From Deltaproteobacteria bacterium (GTDB lineage Bacteria; Desulfobacterota; GWC2-55-46), in the NCBI GenBank assembly GCA_021825035.1, contig JAKAIQ010000001.1, positions 1 through 35,094 on the forward strand: a stretch of 35,094 bases of DNA, written 5' to 3'. Made by a program: the position numbers and the translations under genes. Under the pieces are notes generated by a model. It searched no databases, was not told the DNA's origin, and was given only the letters and a program-made list of their open reading frames with translations. This document shows, piece after piece, positions 1 to 35,094 of the stretch (the stretch's first letter is position 1; the number at the start of each line of letters is the position of its first letter).

Positions 1-272
1 AATACCGCCGCCTTATCCTTGCCTGTTCCGCCCGATGCCGCCGCCGCAGTAGCAACGCCTATCGCGGCCGGTATGAACTCCTTAAGCCCTTCCTCGATAA
101 GCTGTTTGCCGACCGGCAGGAGCACGGAAAGCACCTCGTAGGGTATGTCCTTGAGGTAATACATCACGTTCTCGGCGGCAGTAACCGTACCGTCGCCGTT
201 CGCGTCCTTAACGGGCTTGTCCCAGTTGAAAAGCCCCTTGAGCATCTCGGCACCCGCGTTCAACGTCGCCAT
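1..272 (-). CDS. hypothetical protein, N-terminal part only (runs off left edge); EF-hand-like loop DANGDGTVTAAE
   Basis: Own translation from ATG at 272 is open to the window edge (MATLNAGAEMLKGLFNWDKPVKDANGDGTVTAAEN...). GGGAGGG SD 6 nt upstream. Absent from ORF track because truncated. Confidence 0.5.
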   Translation of the reverse strand, partial: MATLNAGAEMLKGLFNWDKPVKDANGDGTVTAAENVMYYLKDIPYEVLSVLLPVGKQLIEEGLKEFIPAAIGVATAAAASGGTGKDKAAV

Positions 273-25661: not shown

Positions 25662-27263
25662 TTAATCTGTCAGAACTCCAAACGTGCCGCGAGGCTCATT
25701 CAATCCCCTTGCAACTTCCCCGCGGGACCGCTTCACCGGGAACAATCTGGTCGCAACATATTGCAGACTGTCTTGTATGTCGGTGTATTTAGCGCCCGCC
25801 CCAGTCTTGTCGGGTGCATCCGCATACGTACCGCTATGCCCTCTCTCCGGGAAGGCGTATCCTCCCTCGAACCCATCTATCAGTCGGACGCAGGACGGGT
25901 CCACGAGAAAGGCGGGGTCGTCCTGGTTTATCATTCGAGGCTTCTTCCCTATTACGTTGCCCTTCTTGTCCAATTCAACATACCCGAGCCTGTTCGCCAC
26001 GCTCTCCCGCCGTATCTTGAACGTCTGTATCCCGTCCTCGATTGTAATAACCCGGTTATAATCACGCGCCTTGCCGGAAATATAATCGGCAGGACTCTTC
26101 TTATTGCTATCCCTATTCTTGCCAGCCGGGTCACCAATGTGGCGGTACGTACATCCTTCCGGGAGGTTGGCATCGCACCAAAGGATCAACGTTTCAGTAG
26201 CCGAAGTTATGCCCTCATCAAAGAAGGTGAACTCCTTGAAAACACACCACTGTCCGATGTTGTTTATGTAACTCAATGAGATGGCTGGGTGAAGACCCGT
26301 ATTATCCCATCCAACGATAATCTGCACCTTGCGTTCAGGCAAGAGCGAATAAGGAGATACGTGTATCCGACGGTCAAACTCCGGGTAAACCTGCTGCCCA
26401 CGAATGGTCACGCCCCATTCGCCACGCACCAGGGTCTGGAGCAGGTCCGGCCTGTCGGCGTAGTCCTTTTCAAGGTCTGAGTAGTAGTCAGGAGATAAGT
26501 TGTGGGCGTTCTCGGCCTGCCCCTGTTCGTAGATAGCGTATCCGTCTATTGGATTGGCCACGAAGTCTCGGTACAGCCAATGCTCGCGGTCTGGGTAGTT
26601 GGATGTTAGCTCGGTCTGTGGAGGCGTCAGGTACGGTGTGAATTTCTCCTCGTCAACCAGGTGCCTGTATCTATCGGGGTCAAAACCGCGCCACCCATCT
26701 CGCTCGAACTGCACCCAATCCTTCAGGGAAAGATAATAGCGCGGGTCGGATTTGTCGTATATCTTCTGTGAAGGAAAGCGCTTTGTCCTACCAAGGACTC
26801 CCTTGAAAACACTATTTCCTATCTCACGCGCCTCTTCTATCCATGCGCCGGTAAGCTCCAGCGAAAGAAGATTGCGCACATCCTTGTCATCATCCAGGCC
26901 CCGGAACATTATCTCTATCTCCCGGTCCTCTATCTTCATCAGGTATATGCGCTGCGTTTCCTTGTAAACTCCGAAAATGGACGGAGGATACCAGTCCAGA
27001 AAAGTCTTAATGACCGTATCCTTCAGCATCGGTATAGTATTTCTGACTATGGCGAACCTGGAACGCCTGATTCCCTCCCTGTCAGGCTTTATGCGCTTCG
27101 ACTGGAGCATTACCATGTCATAGCCAGCACTCGTTGTCTTCCCGGTTCCGAATACGCCTATAAGGAACTTCACGCGGCTCCTGATGTCAGCATGAAACTT
27201 TAGCGCAACGGGACCGCAGTTGTATTTTAAGACGTATGGCTTCGGCTTTCTCGAAGGTGCCAT
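25662..27263 (-). CDS. terL: terminase large subunit
   Basis: Walker A GVFGTGKTT, Walker B-like AWIEEA, and nuclease-half motifs IVGWDNTG and HIGDPAG; 533 aa. Confidence 0.9.
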   Translation of the reverse strand: MAPSRKPKPYVLKYNCGPVALKFHADIRSRVKFLIGVFGTGKTTSAGYDMVMLQSKRIKPDREGIRRSRFAIVRNTIPMLKDTVIKTFLDWYPPSIFGVYKETQRIYLMKIEDREIEIMFRGLDDDKDVRNLLSLELTGAWIEEAREIGNSVFKGVLGRTKRFPSQKIYDKSDPRYYLSLKDWVQFERDGWRGFDPDRYRHLVDEEKFTPYLTPPQTELTSNYPDREHWLYRDFVANPIDGYAIYEQGQAENAHNLSPDYYSDLEKDYADRPDLLQTLVRGEWGVTIRGQQVYPEFDRRIHVSPYSLLPERKVQIIVGWDNTGLHPAISLSYINNIGQWCVFKEFTFFDEGITSATETLILWCDANLPEGCTYRHIGDPAGKNRDSNKKSPADYISGKARDYNRVITIEDGIQTFKIRRESVANRLGYVELDKKGNVIGKKPRMINQDDPAFLVDPSCVRLIDGFEGGYAFPERGHSGTYADAPDKTGAGAKYTDIQDSLQYVATRLFPVKRSRGEVARGLNEPRGTFGVLTD

Positions 27264-27279
27264 TACTTATCCCTCGGAA

Positions 27280-27630
27280 TCATAAAAGCTTGCAAAGGTG
27301 CTCTACTGTTTCCTCGTTTGCCTGCTCAATCTCGTCCTCTATGGCATAACGAGAATTGCCAATAATGTAAAGCCTGCCAGTCAAAAGGTGGATAACCTCA
27401 TGTTTAGCCGTATGGTCAAGCTCTGCCTCAGTAATCGGGTGCTTCCCCCATTTGTCGGAAAGGTGAATCGACGCCTGAGCACCCTTGTAATGGAATCGGC
27501 AACAAGCCTTAGAACCCTCCAGCGAATCGCCGTGAATAATGCTTATCCCCCACGCGGTTATCTTGAACTTCTCGATATAGTGCAGGCACCGCTCTCGGAA
27601 ATAATAGAAGTCCTTTTTGCTCGTCTTCAT
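27280..27630 (-). CDS. small HExxH-motif protein (minimal Zn-metallopeptidase-like)
   Basis: 116 aa with TAKHEVIHLL; directly upstream of terL. Confidence 0.6.
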   Translation of the reverse strand: MKTSKKDFYYFRERCLHYIEKFKITAWGISIIHGDSLEGSKACCRFHYKGAQASIHLSDKWGKHPITEAELDHTAKHEVIHLLTGRLYIIGNSRYAIEDEIEQANEETVEHLCKLL

Positions 27631-27840
27631 TCCGCACCCCAGGCCAAGTGGTAAACCGGTTCGAACATATCAATCCTATTCCTACCATTGAAATCTCAGC
27701 CAAAATAAATTATCTCCAAAAACCCTTTGGCTAAAAAATTCCCCCCCAAAAAAAATCTGGACACCACCCCTAAAAAATATGGCCACACTTTCCGAGACAG
27801 GGAGATTATACGATATTCATCGCCGCCTTGCCCCGCCTAT

Positions 27841-27863
27841 GGGAGGGGTGGTGGGGGGTGGGG
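27841..27863 (+). other. G-quadruplex-capable G-tract block that competes with a hairpin
   Basis: GGGAGGGGTGGTGGGGGGTGGGG. TGGGAGGG (27840-27847) is complementary to CCCTCCCA (27867-27874). Confidence 0.5.
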
Positions 27864-27905
27864 TAGCCCTCCCACCTCTACCCATGCCCCAAATAGTCCC
27901 CCACG

Positions 27906-28172
27906 TTATCCAAAATACCCTTGTGGATAACTTTGCCTGTGGATAACTTGCCATTCCTATTAAGAGTTCCACGGTTTTCAATCCGCGAGTCGGCTTGCGA
28001 TTCAATGGCTTACAAGCAATGTTCCACGAGAGTTGACATAATACATGTTATGTGACTGCCGTTTATTTTCCTTTTGCTTTACAATGGGTTGATTGTTTGA
28101 GGTGTACCGCTTACCGCTCCCTGTGGATAACAATAAGCGCGTTTTGCCTCTATCTCGTCCGGGTTATCCACA
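27906..28172. promoter_or_regulatory. DnaA-box cluster (4 perfect, 1 one-mismatch)
   Basis: TGTGGATAA at 27922-27930, 27938-27946 and 28122-28130. TTATCCACA at 28164-28172. TTATCCAAA at 27906-27914. An AT-rich stretch lies at about 28033-28100. Confidence 0.7.
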
Positions 28173-28238
28173 GGCACCCTGGGTATCCAGCACCTCAGCC
28201 CGTTGGCGACAGTGCAGGCTATGCGTTTATTGCAGTCC

Positions 28239-28760
28239 TCAGTCCCGCTCTTGCGGCAGGTGTTGCATTCTCGATGTATTGTCATTTGTGATGTCGATTG
28301 GATCATCTACGTTTGAGACCACGGCTACTCCGCCGGTATGCTCGACCTCTACCCTGTCGGCGGGGTAGTCGCCGCATAATTTTGCGAGTTCCTTTGCCGC
28401 TGCAAGTTGCAACTGCCCGTCATCATAGATTTTTTCGTCCGTTATGATGCCTTTATCGGTAGCAGTTACTACTTTTTTTGCATCCGTGAGGGCTACAAAT
28501 TTGGCGATACGCATGCCCTCTGGCATACCGAGTTGGGCGGCTAATCGCTGATTCCGCCTCCTGATGTCCTCAATCGTTCCGTTTTCTCGCAGTTCCCTCG
28601 CGATTTGATAAGCTGTTGATTTTGTTGAGCCGTCTGAGTACCCTGCAAGAGGCGCAGCTTCGGAGACTGGCAATCCTTGGGCGAGTAATTTTGCGAATTC
28701 TCTACGATTTTTATTAAGGGGTCTTTTTTTTAGGCGGGGTTGTTTAGGCTGGTTTTTCAC
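28239..28760 (-). CDS. terS: terminase small subunit (candidate, HTH-type N-domain)
   Basis: REFAKLLAQGLPVSEAAPLAGYSDGSTKSTAYQIARELRENGTIEDIRRR resembles small-terminase DNA-binding domains. GTG start with AAAGGAG SD. First gene of the late block. Confidence 0.6.
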   Translation of the reverse strand: MKNQPKQPRLKKRPLNKNRREFAKLLAQGLPVSEAAPLAGYSDGSTKSTAYQIARELRENGTIEDIRRRNQRLAAQLGMPEGMRIAKFVALTDAKKVVTATDKGIITDEKIYDDGQLQLAAAKELAKLCGDYPADRVEVEHTGGVAVVSNVDDPIDITNDNTSRMQHLPQERD

Positions 28761-28844
28761 CGTGTTCTCCTTTCGGCGTAACTTTTTGAGTTTTACCCCA
28801 AACGAAGAGGAATCTCAAGAGGTTTTTCGCAGGTTATGTATTTT

Positions 28845-28888
28845 CATACTCCCTACATACTCCCTACATACTCCCTACATACTCCCTA
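28845..28888. repeat. four perfect tandem copies of the 11-mer CATACTCCCTA
   Basis: Units at 28845, 28856, 28867 and 28878. The 11-bp period equals one helical turn. Confidence 0.95.
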
Positions 28889-28895
28889 TAGGGAG
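28882..28895. repeat. perfect 14-bp palindrome CTCCCTATAGGGAG
   Basis: Self-complementary; its left half is the end of the last 11-mer. Confidence 0.95.
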
Positions 28896-28903
28896 ATATA
28901 GAA

Positions 28904-28957
28904 GGGTAAGGGTAAGGGTAAGGGTAAGGGTAAGGGTAAGGGTAAGGGTAAGGGTAG
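28904..28957 (+). repeat. hexanucleotide microsatellite (GGGTAA)x8 plus GGGTAG
   Basis: Eight perfect units at 28904-28951. Nine G3 tracts with 3-nt loops are G-quadruplex-capable. Confidence 0.95.
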
Positions 28958-29209
28958 AGAGAGTATGAGAGAGAAGGGGAGTTCCGCCTCTCGTTTTGCC
29001 AGATAATCTTTTGCTGTCAATTTCTTCTCGTGAAGCCCTTTATTTTCAACAATCCCGTTTTTAAGGCATCTACTTTGCCCGCTGTTGCGTTTTTGCCCTC
29101 TACCCGCCACTCCGCCATTCTTTTATTGCCGTTTGTCCAGCCTTGCCTCTCCTGCTTCGCCAGGGATGTATTTCCATCGGCTTGGAGAGATGTCAATTAC
29201 CCCGGCGTC

Positions 29210-29374
29210 TTAGGTATTAAAAAAGGCCCCGTCGCCGGGGCCTGAAAGGTAAGGAATGGTTATTGCGCGCACACCATCGAGTATCAGCTCGCGCAGGGAT
29301 TGCCCCCGCTCGCGGGCCACGCGCTGAGCGTCGGCCCACAGGTCGGCGGGGAGGTACGGGCCTGAGGGAATAGG
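29210..29374 (-). pseudogene. start-less duplicate of the ribbon-helix-helix C-terminal domain of the 29391-29702 gene
   Basis: Own translation LPADLWADAQRVARERGQSLRELILDGVRAI versus IPADLWADAQRMARKRRQSLRELILDGIRSI. The frame is opened by a TAA with no ATG/GTG/TTG after it. Its 3' end is the terminator hairpin. Confidence 0.55.
29219..29242 (-). terminator. intrinsic terminator of the leftward regulatory operon
   Basis: Minus-strand GGCCCCG-GCGA-CGGGGCC followed by TTTTTT. Confidence 0.75.
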
Positions 29375-29390
29375 TTACGCGATCGTAGAT

Positions 29391-29702
29391 TTATCCATTT
29401 TTCGCCTGTATTATTGAGCGGATGCCATCAAGGATTAACTCGCGGAGAGATTGTCGCCGCTTACGGGCCATGCGCTGTGCATCGGCCCACAGGTCAGCGG
29501 GTATATCCCGGAGCAGGTAATCCCCCGCGCCCTCGCGGAGCATCCGGCGCGCTATGTGCATCGCGTTTACCGGCTTGCCCTCGGCCCTCAGCCTCTCAAT
29601 CTCCTGGCGTACATCTACCTGGCAGTTGCGGCAAAGGATTGTCCCACCAATACTGTAGCCGCCCTCTATCGGTTTGCCACAAGCATCACAATATTTGCTC
29701 AT
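29391..29702 (-). CDS. Zn-ribbon plus ribbon-helix-helix (CopG/Arc-like) DNA-binding protein, candidate transcriptional regulator
   Basis: N-terminal CDACGKPIEGG...CRNC. The C-terminal IPADLWADAQRMARKRRQSLRELILDGIRSI fits the RHH pattern. Confidence 0.65.
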   Translation of the reverse strand: MSKYCDACGKPIEGGYSIGGTILCRNCQVDVRQEIERLRAEGKPVNAMHIARRMLREGAGDYLLRDIPADLWADAQRMARKRRQSLRELILDGIRSIIQAKNG

Positions 29703-30202
29703 TATGCAACCTCCTTTTTTGCATTAAGATTACGGGCTACCTGCATCGCCATAGAGGCCAACGGCGAGTTATCAACCCTGACTGTTTGTACCCCGGCATC
29801 CATAAGCTTGCGGATAATTGCCGTTATTGCCTCCGCATCATCGGTAATATCATCGGGAATCTTAATCATCCATGCCTTGCGCGGGCGGCTCATGCCGAGT
29901 ATATCTCCTTGCGGGATATACTCGCCCCACTTACACCCGGCAGCCTTAAGGGCCTCCTTAATGGAGTATGTATCTCCCTTTGTAATCGCCAGATACGCGC
30001 CGCCGGAAAAGGCGTTGTAAATCAATTCCGCCGTTACTATTTCAGATTTGGCTTGTGCCTGCATCTTAGCCCTATAGCACTCTGGGCATATCTTGTTGCG
30101 CTCAAGCCACTCGATACGGCGTTCACGCTCCTTGCCCTGGCCGAACAGTTGCTCCTCGTAAGAGCCGTGCCCACATGCATAACTGATTGTGTACTTTGCC
30201 AT
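29702..30202 (-). CDS. hypothetical Zn-ribbon protein (166 aa)
   Basis: YACGHGSYEEQLFGQGKERERRIEWLERNKICPECY. AAGGGAGGG SD. First gene behind the near-consensus promoter. Confidence 0.7.
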   Translation of the reverse strand: MAKYTISYACGHGSYEEQLFGQGKERERRIEWLERNKICPECYRAKMQAQAKSEIVTAELIYNAFSGGAYLAITKGDTYSIKEALKAAGCKWGEYIPQGDILGMSRPRKAWMIKIPDDITDDAEAITAIIRKLMDAGVQTVRVDNSPLASMAMQVARNLNAKKEVA

Positions 30203-30233
30203 TTTGTCCCTCCCTTGTTAATTGATAATCAAG

Positions 30234-30262
30234 AGTATATCGCGTGATAATCAAGTTGTCAA
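30234..30262 (-). promoter_or_regulatory. sigma70-type promoter TTGACA-17-TATACT with two palindromic operators and an A/T-rich upstream element
   Basis: -35 at 30257-30262 and -10 at 30234-30239. Operators are TTGATAATCAA at 30222-30232 and TGATAATCA at 30245-30253. The A/T-rich tract spans 30266-30297. Confidence 0.7.
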
Positions 30263-30451
30263 GGGATTTTTATAAAAAAATGAAAAAAAGTGAAAATAGG
30301 GGGTGAGGGAGTATTGAGCATTATCTGGACGACCGGCCTCCGGTCGGCCGATGCCACAAGGGGGTTGACTTGAGCGTTTTCGCTGCGCACTTGCGCTTTA
30401 TAGCGCACCATGAGCGGCACTATAGAGTTTGATAACCTGCGCTTTATCAGC

Positions 30452-30480
30452 TTGAAGCAAAATATTTTCTATTCTAACAT
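30452..30480 (+). promoter_or_regulatory. candidate rightward early promoter TTGAAG-17-TAACAT
   Basis: Each hexamer matches 4/6. The TGATAA-N8-TTATCA inverted repeat (30430-30449) abuts the -35. Confidence 0.35.
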
Positions 30481-30593
30481 CCTGATTTAATTCAATTTGC
30501 AATCATTGTGCAAACGCTATAGTTATAGGCTGGCATAATTATAGCATGGCATAAACAGCAAGTGGCGAAAAAAAGCAAGGGGAAAAATTAAAG

Positions 30594-30695
30594 ATGTTCA
30601 GGATCGAGCTAAGGGGCAAGCGGTTTCTGGTTACTTTGGGGGAGTTGATAAGGCTCCAGGGCAAGGGTCTTTCTTACAGTTTCGTAATATATTAA
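30594..30695 (+). CDS. possible 33-aa leader peptide
   Basis: Own translation MFRIELRGKRFLVTLGELIRLQGKGLSYSFVIY*; distant AAGGGG SD. Confidence 0.2.
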   Translation: MFRIELRGKRFLVTLGELIRLQGKGLSYSFVIY

Positions 30696-30713
30696 CCACC
30701 GAAGGGGGAGAAA

Positions 30714-30917
30714 ATGTTACATATCCGTAAAAAGTTACCAAGACGGGGCGGCAATAATTTCTACAAGGACAATAGAGTTTTTGAGACTGCTACCCTGTGC
30801 GGTGCGCCCGTTACAGACAAGGACGTGCTTTTCCAGCACGCCGGATACAAAAATCAGCAGGTGTGGCTTGAGGCTAATTGCTGTGCGGCTTGCCTCGCTA
30901 AATTCAAAACCCTTTAA
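30714..30917 (+). CDS. hypothetical small protein (67 aa)
   Basis: GGGGGAG SD; first gene of the rightward operon. Confidence 0.65.
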   Translation: MLHIRKKLPRRGGNNFYKDNRVFETATLCGAPVTDKDVLFQHAGYKNQQVWLEANCCAACLAKFKTL

Positions 30918-30933
30918 CCACGGAGGCGGGAAT

Positions 30934-31326
30934 ATGAAAACGATAGATACTCTCAGGCTTTGCGGCATTTTCTCAAATGCGGGCTTGACGTGGGATAACA
31001 TACCCGACCTTGATAGGCTGAACAAGCTCGGCAAGCGGGTACACCGGATAAGCGAAAATCAGTGCAACGGCTTCCAGGATTATAGGGGCGATTGGGATCA
31101 GGCCGCTTCCGACAACGCGGACAAGGCGGTCGAAAAAATCAAGGCCGAAATAACGACGATATGCGCCCGTAACGGCTGGGATGTTAAAATCAACACCGAT
31201 CCGCGCGGGTGGCCGTTAAAGGTGCTCGTGCCGATATATTGGCCCAAGACGGCCAAAAAAGGGAGCCTTATCCCGCCGGGACAGCGTACGGGCGAACATG
31301 ATATAAGCGCATTGGTTAACCTTTAA
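30934..31326 (+). CDS. hypothetical protein (130 aa)
   Basis: GGAGG SD before the internal ATG at 30934; the track start at 30781 overlaps the previous gene. Confidence 0.65.
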   Translation: MKTIDTLRLCGIFSNAGLTWDNIPDLDRLNKLGKRVHRISENQCNGFQDYRGDWDQAASDNADKAVEKIKAEITTICARNGWDVKINTDPRGWPLKVLVPIYWPKTAKKGSLIPPGQRTGEHDISALVNL

Positions 31327-34990: not shown

Positions 34991-35027
34991 AAGGGCTTAG
35001 GAGTTATCCTAAGCCCTTGTTTTTGTT
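34991..35027 (+). terminator. intrinsic terminator ending the rightward operon (possibly bidirectional)
   Basis: Perfect 12-bp stem AAGGGCTTAGGA / TCCTAAGCCCTT with loop GTTA, followed by GTTTTTGTTT. Confidence 0.85.

Positions 35028-35094
<67 letters not shown>

What the first reader, a model, noticed from the sequence alone, without database searches (positions are those of the whole stretch)
28845..28967. 11-bp x4 tandem array, 14-bp palindrome and (GGGTAA)8 microsatellite just upstream of terS
**Seen.**
- CATACTCCCTA is repeated four times perfectly (28845-28888), with a period of one helical turn.
- The last unit runs into the perfect palindrome CTCCCTATAGGGAG (28882-28895).
- Eight perfect GGGTAA units plus GGGTAG follow (28904-28957).
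- A purine mirror repeat GAGAGAGTATGAGAGAG (28957-28973) comes next. It carries a degenerate inverted copy of the 11-mer core (GAGAGTATG, 28959-28967).
- GGGAGTAT recurs at 30307-30314 in the control region.
- Strand asymmetry flips at the palindrome: CCC every 11 nt to its left, GGG every 6 nt to its right.

**Established.** Small terminases recognise arrays of short repeats at pac/cos sites. T7-type concatemer junctions are flanked by arrays of short repeats. Plasmid iterons are also phased direct repeats. (G3N3)n tracts fold into G-quadruplexes.

**Inference.** This is a candidate packaging-recognition site or genome terminus, or alternatively an iteron set partnering the nearby DnaA boxes. 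The hexamer tract would act as a length-variable G4 element. None of these roles can be decided from sequence alone.
Basis: partly seen in the sequence, partly recalled or inferred. Interest (0 to 1): 0.65.

Follow-up and report, generated by a model that had tools for sequence, protein, structure and literature searches.

The report
Repeat arrays heading a prophage's packaging operon
Two perfect short-repeat arrays joined by a palindrome sit just upstream of the small-terminase gene of a temperate phage from mine-drainage bacteria; relatives carry similar arrays in the same place, so this is most likely a protein-docking site for starting DNA packaging or switching on the packaging genes, which is a known kind of element, though neither role is proven.

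Summary
(CATACTCCCTA)x4 lies at 28845-28888, the palindrome CTCCCTATAGGGAG at 28882-28895, a 55-nt GGGTAA tract at 28902-28956, and a degenerate inverted 11-mer copy at 28959-67. All are far beyond chance.

The element is an integrated temperate phage, inserted at tRNA-Met, from mine-drainage metagenomes. The arrays lie between the terminator of a short upstream operon and terS, 85 nt from its GTG start.

Short tandem arrays upstream of terS are a trait of this TerS family. Four of seven lineages have strict arrays, against about 0.008 expected per 300 nt. The closest relative (68% TerS identity) repeats the architecture: four perfect 11-bp units, an abutting inverted copy that makes a palindrome, and opposed AAGGGTAT motifs.

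Best reading (0.4): a TerS docking and packaging-initiation region, similar to SPP1 pac or lambda cosB. Contig depth drops across the arrays in five of five runs, which fits weakly.

Rivals:
- An operator for a regulator of the late operon, for example the adjacent Zn-ribbon/RHH protein (0.27).
- Origin iterons (0.12).
- No sequence-specific role (0.15).

The apparent copy-number variation (5/3 against 9/4 units) matches a k=29 assembly collapse and is not demonstrated. The G4 motif is real, but no function is shown. The T7-promoter resemblance is rejected.

The parts
28845..28888 (-). Four perfect 11-bp direct repeats, reading TAGGGAGTATG on the terS-sense strand. They are proximal to terS and spaced one helical turn apart.
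   Evidence: TRF finds 4.0 copies at 100% match; also read directly. The closest TerS relative, L182, has 4.4 perfect copies of an 11-bp unit (TATGGATACCC) in the same place.
28882..28895 (.). A 14-bp perfect palindrome, CTCCCTA|TAGGGAG. It is formed by one inverted copy of the 7-bp core abutting the last 11-mer, and it marks the junction between the two opposed motif sets.
   Evidence: Read directly. L182 has the analogous junction ATAGGGTATggATACCCTAT. L193 and L208 have 18-20-bp palindromes at array junctions. A 73-nt unitig spans the palindrome in the metagenome runs.
28902..28956 (+). A 55-nt hexamer tract: (AAGGGT)9.2, which is (GGGTAA)8 plus GGGTAG. The G-rich strand is antisense to terS. 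The tract repeats the AAGGGTA motif in the orientation opposite to the 11-mers and fits the canonical G4 motif.
   Evidence: TRF finds 9.2 copies at 100% match. The G4 regex matches at 28904-28954. The single-strand DNA fold is -35.3 kcal/mol with G4 terms and -11.3 without. L182 has GAAGGGTAT twice at the corresponding place.
28957..28973 (+). A purine mirror repeat, GAGAGAGTATGAGAGAG. It carries a degenerate inverted copy of the 11-mer (GAGAGTATG, 28959-28967), so the hexamer tract is bracketed by inverted copies.
   Evidence: Read directly. It pairs with the first 11-mers in the single-strand fold. L181 has AAGAGTATGAGAGAA upstream of its terS.
28761..28844 (-). An 84-nt spacer and leader between the arrays and the terS GTG start. 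It holds the RBS AAAGGAGAA and only a weak promoter-like TTGAGA-N17-TAAAAC.
   Evidence: Read directly. The consensus scan finds no sigma-70 match here.
28239..28760 (-). terS, a 173-aa small terminase with an N-terminal HTH. It is the first gene of the packaging and structural operon.
   Evidence: PHROG 51, E = 4.8e-8. The family profile hits the Pam5 and SF6 small terminases. It lies upstream of terL, 25662-27263.
29224..29243 (-). An intrinsic terminator that ends the upstream 166-aa/103-aa operon. It isolates the array region from read-through transcription.
   Evidence: An 8-bp stem with 7 GC pairs followed by a T run.
29391..29702 (-). A 103-aa Zn-ribbon plus ribbon-helix-helix protein. 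It is the candidate array-binding regulator in the rival explanation.
   Evidence: The family profile hits an RHH antitoxin (7e4j, E = 5.8e-4) and a CopG-family RHH (9kkd, E = 1.3e-3). FitA-like_RHH is found in 6 of 45 members. The single-sequence AF2 model is poor, pLDDT 64.

Best explanation
The cassette is a cis-acting docking site at the head of the packaging operon, most likely the recognition part of the phage's packaging-initiation (pac/cos) region.

Proposed mechanism (inferred, not shown):
- The N-terminal HTH domains of an oligomeric TerS ring bind the four identical TAGGGAGTATG units. These are spaced one helical turn apart on one face of the DNA.
- The oppositely oriented AAGGGT(A) copies beyond the palindrome provide a second, opposed binding arm, so the DNA is bent or wrapped.
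- TerL is positioned to cut at or near the palindromic junction.
- Packaging then proceeds in the terS to terL direction, leftwards in window coordinates.
- Because the site lies directly upstream of the terS leader, it may also affect terS transcription.

Shown:
- The anatomy of the cassette.
- Its position upstream of terS.
- Its uniqueness in the window.
- The recurrence of such arrays upstream of terS across the TerS family.
- A drop in DNA depth across the arrays.

Inferred:
- Which protein binds.
- That cleavage occurs here.
- The direction of packaging.
For: 1. Family-level recurrence.
- Of seven TerS lineages with upstream sequence, four have strict tandem arrays: the window, L182, L183/L186 and L189.
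- Two more, L181 and L188, have degenerate G-run repeats.
- Background density in 1.2 Mb of related phage DNA is 0.027 arrays per kb.

2. Repeated architecture in L182 (TerS 68% identical). It has 4 perfect 11-bp units next to terS, an abutting inverted copy that forms a palindrome, and opposed AAGGGTAT motifs. The core is related but not identical: ATAGGGTAT against TAGGGAGTA.

3. The genes upstream of the arrays differ between lineages, while terS is the constant neighbour.

4. The motif occurs nowhere else in the window above chance.

5. TerS carries an HTH related to those of solved small terminases.

6. Literature precedent (PMC4737164).
- The SPP1 pac site consists of three sets of direct repeats that span the promoters and the start of terS.
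- Adjacent HTHs of TerS rings are about one DNA turn apart.

7. Contig k-mer depth is higher on the terS side than on the other side of the arrays in 5 of 5 runs.
- The values are 14.4|6.0, 15.5|9.0, 11.9|8.0, 9.1|8.5 and 11.7|8.8.
- Depth declines with distance leftwards.

8. TerL belongs to the PBSX/Terminase_3 type. Its nearest characterised relatives include Mx8. That Mx8 packages by a headful mechanism is from my own knowledge, not a tool result.

9. In one run of the P0125 relative, a contig end is an Illumina adapter fused to sequence between the two arrays upstream of terS. This hints at a fixed DNA end.
Against: - No read-level data were available, so no termini were mapped.
- The five runs come from one study.
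- The right arm shows strain variants that could lower k-mer depth without any packaging.
- Depth of the short palindrome-spanning unitig is inconsistent between runs.
- The array sequences differ widely among lineages whose TerS HTH regions are fairly similar.
- The SF6 TerS DNA-binding domain showed little specificity for the pac repeats (PMC4737164).
- The arrays lie upstream of -35-like TTGACA boxes in relatives, which suits a transcription regulator equally well.
- Near-identical cassettes act in a replication context in other phages.
Confidence: 0.4

Rival explanations
1. The arrays are the operator of a transcription regulator of the late (terS-led) operon. A dedicated DNA-binding protein would polymerise on the tandem units and activate or repress the weak terS promoter. 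This is how the Ltr activators (RinA, LtrC, ArpU, Alt) work through direct repeats upstream of terS. The best local candidate is the Zn-ribbon/RHH protein p103, encoded just upstream.
For: - The layout resembles the Ltr layout of regulator gene, terminator, repeats, terS promoter and terS (PMC3753634). The window order is regulator operon, terminator, arrays, terS.
- No consensus sigma-70 promoter lies between the terminator and terS in the window. This fits an activator-dependent promoter.
- p103 has an RHH domain.
- RHH proteins bind tandem repeats cooperatively, in direct and inverted orientation. Examples are ParR on 10-bp half-sites and omega on heptads (PMC3130281).
- p103-type genes neighbour terS in two other phages. 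In L320 the gene is divergent from a TerS-family/TerL pair. In L092 an RHH-only homologue is divergent from terS, with TATAGGGTAT twice in the spacer.
- In relatives the arrays lie about 35-100 nt upstream of -35-like boxes.
Against: - In the other 15 of 17 viral loci that encode p103 relatives, no arrays or terS follow the gene.
- The TerS relatives that carry arrays have unrelated upstream genes.
- L320 has no tandem array in its spacer.
- A regulator site does not explain a step in DNA depth.
- Ltr repeats lie upstream of the terminator, whereas here the arrays lie downstream of it.
Confidence: 0.27
2. The arrays are replication-origin iterons. An initiator would bind the 11-bp units, and the DnaA-box cluster and T-rich tract on the other side of terS would complete a host-DnaA-assisted origin. 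Unidirectional replication would then give the depth asymmetry.
For: - The same composite cassette lies inside a replisome-organizer/DnaD-like gene next to a DnaB helicase in L193. That cassette has a hexamer microsatellite, an 18-20-bp palindrome and four 11-mers with the core ATAGGGTAT.
- Similar arrays lie inside ORFs upstream of a primase/helicase gene in L208, and in L204.
- Four perfect DnaA boxes lie at 27922-28172, against 0.27 expected in the whole window.
- The inverted DnaA-box pair is conserved in L189.
- No recognisable replication gene or other origin was found in the window.
- A depth step exists.
Against: - No initiator gene is adjacent to the arrays.
- The arrays and the DnaA boxes are separated by the whole terS gene.
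- DnaA boxes are absent from L181 and L183, which still have upstream repeats.
- Across the TerS lineages the constant neighbour is terS, not a replication gene.
- The same TAGGGTAT arrays also occur in head-gene, terL and integrase contexts (L235, L263, L278), so the motif does not indicate a function.
- 11 bp is short for known plasmid and phage iterons (from my own knowledge).
Confidence: 0.12
3. The arrays have no sequence-specific function. On this reading they are slippage-generated microsatellites tolerated in a long non-coding spacer. They might act only as a recombination or mosaic boundary, or as a contingency (phase-variable) tract.
For: - Perfect identity of the units fits recent slippage.
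- 11-bp arrays are common in viral contigs. TAGGG phased at 11 bp x4 gives 118 contigs, and a composition-matched control (GTGAG) gives 102.
- The right arm of the phage is heterogeneous between assemblies while the left arm is not. This would fit a mosaic boundary.
Against: - Enrichment upstream of terS in independent lineages is far above background.
- The palindromic, opposed-orientation architecture is conserved in L182.
- Length variation is not demonstrated. The 5/3-copy alleles fit a k=29 collapse.
Confidence: 0.15
4. The palindrome is a promoter for a T7-type single-subunit RNA polymerase. CTCCCTATAGGGAGA matches the T7 consensus positions -9 to +6 at 14 of 15 bases.
For: The match has 1 mismatch on the + strand and 2 on the - strand. 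Dinucleotide-preserving shuffles give 0.03 matches on average.
Against: - No RNA-polymerase-sized or polymerase-like gene is present. The large ORFs give no such family hits.
- The upstream specificity region does not match T7.
- The homologous junction in L182 (ATAGGGTATGGATACCCTAT) has no T7 likeness.
- The match follows automatically from an inverted copy of the repeat core.
Confidence: 0.02

Closest known systems
SPP1/SF6 pac region (pacL-pacC-pacR) bound by the small terminase G1P
   Same: - Sets of short direct repeats lie immediately upstream of and around the terS start, overlapping its promoter region.
- TerS has an N-terminal HTH displayed on a ring at about one-helical-turn spacing (PMC4737164).
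- The TerS profile weakly hits the SF6 DNA-binding domain.
   Different: - Here the repeats are perfect tandem arrays (11 bp x4, 6 bp x9) with a palindromic junction, not two- or three-copy dispersed boxes.
- Neither the cleavage site nor binding has been mapped.
- The phage is a temperate podovirus-like element (SU10-adaptor domain), not a Bacillus siphovirus.
Lambda cosN-cosB (R3-R2-R1) next to Nu1
   Same: The order is a symmetric element (the cut site in lambda), then repeated TerS-binding sites, then the terS start. This is from my own knowledge of lambda.
   Different: - TerL here is of the PBSX/Terminase_3 type, not the GpA type.
- The units are contiguous and phased at 11 bp, whereas the lambda R sites are 16 bp and spaced.
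- No IHF site has been identified.
- Cohesive ends were not tested.
Ltr (RinA/LtrC/ArpU/Alt) late-activator binding repeats upstream of terS
   Same: - Two to four direct repeats lie between a small regulator gene, a terminator and the terS promoter.
- These repeats are required for late-operon transcription (PMC3753634; PMC3152322).
   Different: - Those systems come from phages of Gram-positive hosts.
- Their repeats sit directly after the regulator's stop codon, upstream of the terminator.
- p103 is a Zn-ribbon/RHH protein, not an Ltr-family member.
- Synteny of p103 with arrays is not conserved.
Centromere/operator arrays of RHH proteins (ParR-parC, omega heptads, ParG-parH)
   Same: - Contiguous short repeats occur in direct and inverted orientation.
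- RHH dimers bind them cooperatively and build a wrapped nucleoprotein structure (PMC3130281).
- An RHH gene lies next door.
   Different: - No partition ATPase is present, and the element integrates.
- Binding was not tested.
Phage origin iterons inside replisome-organizer genes
   Same: L193, L208 and L204 carry 4 x 11-bp ATAGGGTAT arrays with palindromic junctions. L193 also has a hexamer microsatellite. All lie within initiator-like genes.
   Different: In the window, the arrays are intergenic, next to terS, and no initiator gene is nearby.
Herpesvirus pac1 G-quadruplex motif
   Same: A G4-capable G-tract lies within a packaging signal (PMC13595911).
   Different: - The lineage is unrelated.
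- Here the G4 is a regular (GGGTAA)n microsatellite.
- Its role and its folding in duplex DNA are untested.

Membership tests
Phage packaging-initiation site (pac/cos) recognised by TerS | Virion DNA ends, or the first cut of a packaging series, map at or next to the site. | not testable with these tools
   Only assembled contigs of metagenome runs were available, and they carry no read starts. The indirect evidence is a depth drop across the arrays in 5 of 5 runs from one study.
Phage packaging-initiation site (pac/cos) recognised by TerS | The site lies in or next to the terS gene and is unique in the genome. | tested here: met
   The arrays are 85 nt upstream of the terS start. The motif is not found elsewhere above chance.
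Phage packaging-initiation site (pac/cos) recognised by TerS | The site co-occurs and co-varies with the cognate TerS in related phages. | tested here: inconclusive
   Arrays recur upstream of terS in 4-6 of 7 lineages, and the closest relative has a related core. There are too few lineages to show covariation with the HTH.
Phage packaging-initiation site (pac/cos) recognised by TerS | TerS binds the site specifically. | not testable with these tools
   This needs EMSA or footprinting.
Late-operon activator/repressor operator (Ltr-like) | Repeats lie between the regulator gene, a terminator and the terS promoter. | tested here: met
   The terminator is at 29224-29243, the arrays at 28845-28956 and the terS start at 28760. 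The order of terminator and repeats is reversed relative to the Ltr systems.
Late-operon activator/repressor operator (Ltr-like) | The regulator belongs to the RinA/LtrC/ArpU/Alt superfamily. | tested here: not met
   p103 and p166 give no such Pfam, PHROG or NCBIfam hits. p103 is a Zn-ribbon plus RHH protein.
Late-operon activator/repressor operator (Ltr-like) | Synteny of the regulator gene with the repeats and terS is conserved. | tested here: inconclusive
   A p103-type gene neighbours terS in L320 and L092. It does not in the other 15 of 17 viral loci.
Replication-origin iterons | Repeats lie within or adjacent to the initiator gene, or to an AT-rich unwinding element with DnaA boxes. | tested here: not met
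   No initiator gene was found in the window. The DnaA boxes and T-tracts lie 670-1100 bp away, beyond terS.
G-quadruplex-forming element | At least four G3+ runs with loops of 1-7 nt. | tested here: met
   Nine G3 runs with TAA loops lie at 28904-28954. The computed single-strand fold contains two three-layer G4s and scores -35.3 against -11.3 kcal/mol. Folding in vivo or in duplex DNA was not tested.
Contingency (length-variable) microsatellite | Copy number differs among reads or strains. | tested here: inconclusive
   - The 9/4-copy form is in the window and L006. The 5/3-copy form is in L001 and L003-L005.
- The short alleles have tract lengths of 31 and 33 nt. These are the smallest in-phase lengths of at least k-1 for k=29, a MEGAHIT step (from my own knowledge of MEGAHIT defaults).
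- The 55-nt tract likewise equals a k=55 collapse (my calculation), so 9 copies may be a lower bound.
- My ratios from the unitig depths fit roughly 7-10 hexamer copies and 3.4-4.5 copies of the 11-mer.
T7-type single-subunit RNAP promoter | A cognate RNAP gene is present and the 23-bp promoter is repeated in front of genes. | tested here: not met
   No such gene was found among the ORFs. The match is a single site that only resembles the T7 core. It is absent from the L182 homologue.

The most novel reading that the evidence does not exclude
The tripartite cassette is a portable nucleoprotein-scaffold module that unrelated phages reuse for different DNA transactions.

- The cassette consists of a hexamer microsatellite, a palindromic junction and four helically phased 11-bp units with a TAGGG(N)TA core.
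- It appears as an origin inside replisome-organizer genes in some phages and as a packaging or late-operon entry site next to terS here.
- In this phage, the distal arm has been replaced by a G-quadruplex-capable (GGGTAA)n tract.
- The length or folding of that tract would tune packaging initiation, as a bacterial-virus counterpart of the herpesvirus pac1 G4.
Probability: 0.12. Interest if true: 0.7.

Novelty: new member of a known kind. Interest (0 to 1): 0.42.

Why it matters
If the arrays are the TerS recognition site, they give an unusually clean, sequence-defined pac/cos candidate for an uncultured temperate phage clade: four identical sites at one-turn spacing plus an opposed arm. It would be a convenient substrate for testing the model that DNA wraps around the TerS ring.

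It would also mark where host DNA transduction could start from this prophage.

If the arrays are instead an RHH operator, they define a late-gene switch of a kind not described for such phages.

Either way, the practical lesson for annotation is twofold.
- Short perfect arrays upstream of terS are a family trait.
- They break k=31 assemblies and collapse in multi-k assemblies, which produces spurious 'copy-number variants'.

Tried and rejected
- DNA similarity to known phages: none.
- Single-sequence TerL scans of viral and genome collections: nothing.
- TerL relatives at 42-66% identity share only TerL, so they do not help for the terS-upstream region. Several of their contigs end in long tandem arrays 2-5 kb upstream of terL. 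This cannot be told apart from assembly breaks.
- Rfam scan of 27000-31000: no RNA family.
- Coding readings through the arrays give 68 aa with (RV)n and 74 aa with (LP)n. Neither has a family hit. Rejected.
- A small ORF upstream of the arrays (33/59 aa) is not significantly similar to the L182 upstream ORF, E = 0.27.
- T7-promoter reading: rejected.
- GGGAGTAT at 30307: chance.
- Copy-number variation: attributed to k-mer collapse.
- p103 structure: the single-sequence AF2 model was poor and Foldseek gave nothing significant. The RHH assignment rests on profile hits.
- The exact 22-mer of the array in genome contigs: one unrelated Flavobacteriaceae hit.
- TAGGG is not special among 11-bp arrays. 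A control pentamer gives similar counts.
Host baseline depth, and the possible fixed end in the P0125 phage, could therefore not be checked.
Full report
**1. The observation**

Reading 28500-29400 and running Tandem Repeats Finder confirm every coordinate.
- CATACTCCCTA x4.0 lies at 28845-28888, with 100% match.
- The 14-bp palindrome CTCCCTATAGGGAG lies at 28882-28895. It is made by an inverted copy of the 7-bp core abutting the last unit.
- A 55-nt period-6 tract lies at 28902-28956: (AAGGGT)9.2, which is eight GGGTAA plus GGGTAG.
- The mirror repeat GAGAGAGTATGAGAGAG lies at 28957-28973. It contains a degenerate inverted 11-mer copy (GAGAGTATG), so the hexamer tract is bracketed by inverted copies.

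In 200 shuffles, the longest perfect tracts were 18 nt for period 6 and 22 nt for period 11. The observed tracts are 55 and 44 nt.

The extra GGGAGTAT at 30307 is at chance level.

**2. Context**

All genes from 28760 down to about 275 are on the minus strand.

| Coordinates | Strand | Feature | Evidence |
|---|---|---|---|
| 28239-28760 | - | Small terminase (terS), N-terminal HTH | PHROG 51, 4.8e-8; family profile hits the Pam5 and SF6 small terminases |
| 25662-27263 | - | terL, PBSX/Terminase_3 type | |
| downstream of terL | - | Portal-like gene and an SU10-adaptor-domain gene | |
| 30262-30234 | - | 11/12 sigma-70 promoter | |
| 29702-30202 | - | 166-aa gene driven by that promoter | |
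| 29391-29702 | - | 103-aa gene (p103) in the same operon | |
| 29224-29243 | - | Strong hairpin terminator ending this operon | |

About 250 nt separate the terminator from the cassette. On the terS-sense strand the cassette reads (TACCCT)9, then palindrome, then (TAGGGAGTATG)4. An 84-nt leader with a GGAG RBS then precedes the terS GTG start. No consensus promoter is found between the terminator and terS.

The element is an integrated temperate phage.
- Near-identical contigs continue beyond 35072 into a tRNA-Met and host genes (DUF4331, RecO, RadC).
- Another contig instead joins the same end to an integrase.

The cassette is therefore internal to the prophage, which is where cos/pac lies in lambda-like maps. 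The source is a mine-drainage metagenome.

**3. Copy number**

The window and GCA_016276955.3 have 9 hexamers and 4 11-mers. Three other assemblies have 5 and 3.

The short tracts are 31 and 33 nt. These are exactly the smallest in-phase lengths of at least k-1 for k=29, which is a MEGAHIT step, and those contigs are named 'k141_'. I treat the variation as an assembly collapse.

The 55-nt hexamer tract is likewise what a k=55 collapse would leave, so 9 copies may be a lower bound. My ratios from the Logan k=31 unitig depths fit roughly 7-10 hexamer copies and 3.4-4.5 copies of the 11-mer. Length variability is therefore not demonstrated.

**4. Relatives**

TerL has many relatives at 42-66% identity, but they share nothing else with this phage.

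TerS has few relatives. Their upstream regions are informative.

| Locus | TerS identity | What lies upstream of terS |
|---|---|---|
| L182 | 68% | Same architecture: GAAGGGTAT x2 and ATAGGGTAT facing four perfect 11-bp units (ATACCCTATGG); junction palindrome ATAGGGTATggATACCCTAT |
| L183/L186 | 62% | Contig starts inside a 12-mer array, followed by TTAAGATC x3 |
| L189 | 51% | CTTTAAAAG x3.7 ahead of two 11/12 sigma-70 promoters |
| L188 | 52% | Degenerate G-run repeats (GGGGGAG-like) directly after the upstream gene's stop codon |
| L181 | 43% | Degenerate G-run repeats (TAGGGGGGGAGCGTATG) directly after the upstream gene's stop codon |
| L187 | 41% | Satellite-like locus; no array |

With strict TRF criteria, the background in 1.2 Mb of related phage DNA is 0.027 arrays per kb. 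That is about 0.008 per 300 nt, yet 4 of 7 lineages have an array. Logan contigs of the P0125 phage also break just upstream of terS in four runs, as expected from such arrays.

The genes upstream of the arrays differ between lineages. terS is the constant neighbour.

**5. DNA depth**

Mean k-mer depth of Logan contigs was compared on the two sides of the arrays in five runs of one study.

| Run | terS side | Other side |
|---|---|---|
| X1 | 14.4 | 6.0 |
| X2 | 15.5 | 9.0 |
| X3 | 11.9 | 8.0 |
| X4 | 9.1 | 8.5 |
| X21 | 11.7 | 8.8 |

Depth also declines with distance leftwards (for example 14.4 > 12.7 > 10.3).

This is the sign expected if extra DNA copies start at the arrays and run towards terS, as in headful packaging or unidirectional replication. 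It is weak evidence for several reasons.
- All runs come from one study.
- These are contig averages.
- The right arm shows strain variants.
- The short palindrome-spanning unitig has inconsistent depth.

Host-flank depth could not be obtained.

**6. Who binds?**

TerS is the first candidate.
- In SPP1 the pac region consists of three sets of direct repeats spanning the promoters and the start of terS.
- In TerS rings, adjacent HTHs are about one DNA turn apart (PMC4737164).
- This matches four identical units at 11-bp spacing.
- The same paper found little sequence specificity of the SF6 DNA-binding domain, which is a caution.

p103 is the second candidate.
- Its family (100 representatives) has a Zn-ribbon and a C-terminal RHH domain.
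- The PDB profile hits are 7e4j (5.8e-4) and a CopG-family RHH, 9kkd (1.3e-3).
- FitA-like_RHH appears in 6 of 45 members.
- RHH proteins polymerise on contiguous short repeats in either orientation (PMC3130281).
- The layout resembles the Ltr activator systems of regulator gene, terminator, direct repeats and terS promoter (PMC3753634).
- p103-type genes neighbour terS in L320 and L092.
- The other 15 of 17 viral p103 loci show no arrays or terS downstream.
- TerS relatives with arrays lack p103 upstream.

**7. The iteron alternative**

A scan of viral contigs for TAGGG phased at 11 bp x4 found 118 contigs. Some carry strikingly similar cassettes.
- L193 has (TTTTTC)6, a 20-bp palindrome and four ATAGGGTAT 11-mers. 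All lie inside a replisome-organizer/DnaD-like gene next to a DnaB helicase.
- L208 has arrays inside an ORF upstream of a primase/helicase gene, and L204 has them inside an initiator-like ORF.

However, the same core also occurs in other contexts.
- Between head genes (L235).
- Near terL (L263).
- Upstream of an integrase (L278).

A control pentamer gives as many contigs, 102. Eleven-bp arrays are thus a general docking format, not a marker of one function.

In the window no initiator gene is nearby. The DnaA-box cluster is real: four perfect boxes at 27922-28172, with the inverted pair conserved in L189. It lies on the far side of terS, in a separate conserved non-coding module.

**8. Other readings**

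- The hexamer tract meets the canonical G4 motif. As a single strand it folds into two G4s: -35.3 against -11.3 kcal/mol.
- The G strand is antisense to terS. G/C-run motifs recur around terS in relatives. No function follows from this.
- The herpesvirus pac1 G4 is only an analogy (PMC13595911).
- The 14/15 match to the T7 promoter core is a by-product of the inverted repeat. No polymerase gene is present, and L182 has no such match.
- ORFs through the arrays are spurious.

**9. Verdict**

The finding is real and non-random. It belongs to a known kind: a repeat-built protein-docking region at the head of a phage packaging operon.

| Reading | Confidence |
|---|---|
| TerS recognition / packaging initiation | 0.40 |
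| Late-operon regulator operator | 0.27 |
| Origin iterons | 0.12 |
| No specific function | 0.15 |

The remainder, including 0.02 for the T7-promoter reading, covers other possibilities.

The unusual features are the perfection of the arrays, the opposed-orientation design shared with L182 and with cassettes of other phages, and the G4-capable microsatellite arm.

Noticed in passing
window 27631-28238: A 608-nt non-coding gap lies between terS and the next gene.
- It has four perfect DnaA boxes (27922, 27938 and 28122 on the - strand, 28164 on the + strand), against 0.27 expected in the whole window.
- It has back-to-back G4 motifs on opposite strands (27841-63 and 27867-902).
- It has a run of T-tracts (27700-27790).
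- A homologous module follows terS in L189 (inverted DnaA-box pair conserved), and in L181 and L183 (C/G runs plus T-tracts only).

This is a candidate origin, or the real pac site.
   Followed up: partly
window 29260-29350 vs 29411-29501: A 91-nt direct repeat at 80% identity. It is a second, start-less copy of the RHH-encoding 3' end of the 103-aa gene, just before the terminator.
   Followed up: partly
window 29391-29702 (-): The 103-aa protein belongs to a family of about 100-aa Zn-ribbon plus ribbon-helix-helix proteins (100 representatives). The gene usually ends an operon, and it neighbours terS in L320 and L092.
   Followed up: partly
window 35028-35094; L169 10558-10634; L174: The window ends inside a tRNA-Met gene that is the integration site. 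Host genes follow in some contigs. Another contig joins the same end to an integrase, which is a probable attP junction. K-mer depth exceeds 1000 at 35022-35094.
   Followed up: yes
window 1-261: K-mer depth is about twice the phage depth here, and every assembly breaks near positions 1-130. The stretch is shared with another element, so the left end of the prophage is not in the window.
   Followed up: partly
L187 3001-3498: A TerS-family homologue (41% identity) sits in a satellite-like locus with an HTH_17 (excisionase-type) gene and Toprim and DUF3987 primase genes, and without terL. DnaA-box-like TGTGGAT repeats lie just upstream.
   Followed up: no
L184 1-23: In one run, the contig end of the P0125 relative is an Illumina adapter fused to phage sequence between the two arrays upstream of terS. 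This is a possible fixed DNA end. It is a single case and could not be checked.
   Followed up: no
L193, L208/L299, L204, L235, L278 (viral contigs): ATAGGGTAT arrays at 11-bp period, with palindromic junctions and AAGGGTAT variants, recur in unrelated phages. They lie inside replisome-organizer-type genes, between head genes, and upstream of an integrase.
   Followed up: partly
window 28845-28888 (- strand): Each unit reads TAG-GGAG-T-ATG, that is stop codon, Shine-Dalgarno-like GGAG and start codon. This gives three ATG-TAG start-stop mini-ORFs and then a 10-codon ORF. The hexamer (TACCCT)n also has the TANNNT form of a -10 box. Both are probably coincidence.
   Followed up: no
window 30519-30587: Two adjacent 16-17-bp tandem repeats, ATAATTATAGCATGGC x2.2 and AAAAAGCAAGTGGCGAA x2.2, lie in the divergent control region. 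They are possible operators.
   Followed up: no
L183 1598-2284: The P0125 relative encodes a 228-aa sigma-70 region-4/GerE-type HTH protein between terS and terL. The window has a 116-aa gene at that position.
   Followed up: no
L094, L096, L101, L103 (contig ends): Several TerL-related viral contigs end in long tandem arrays (12-18-bp units, 7-14 copies) 2-5 kb upstream of terL. Whether these are assembly breaks or true ends is unresolved.
   Followed up: no
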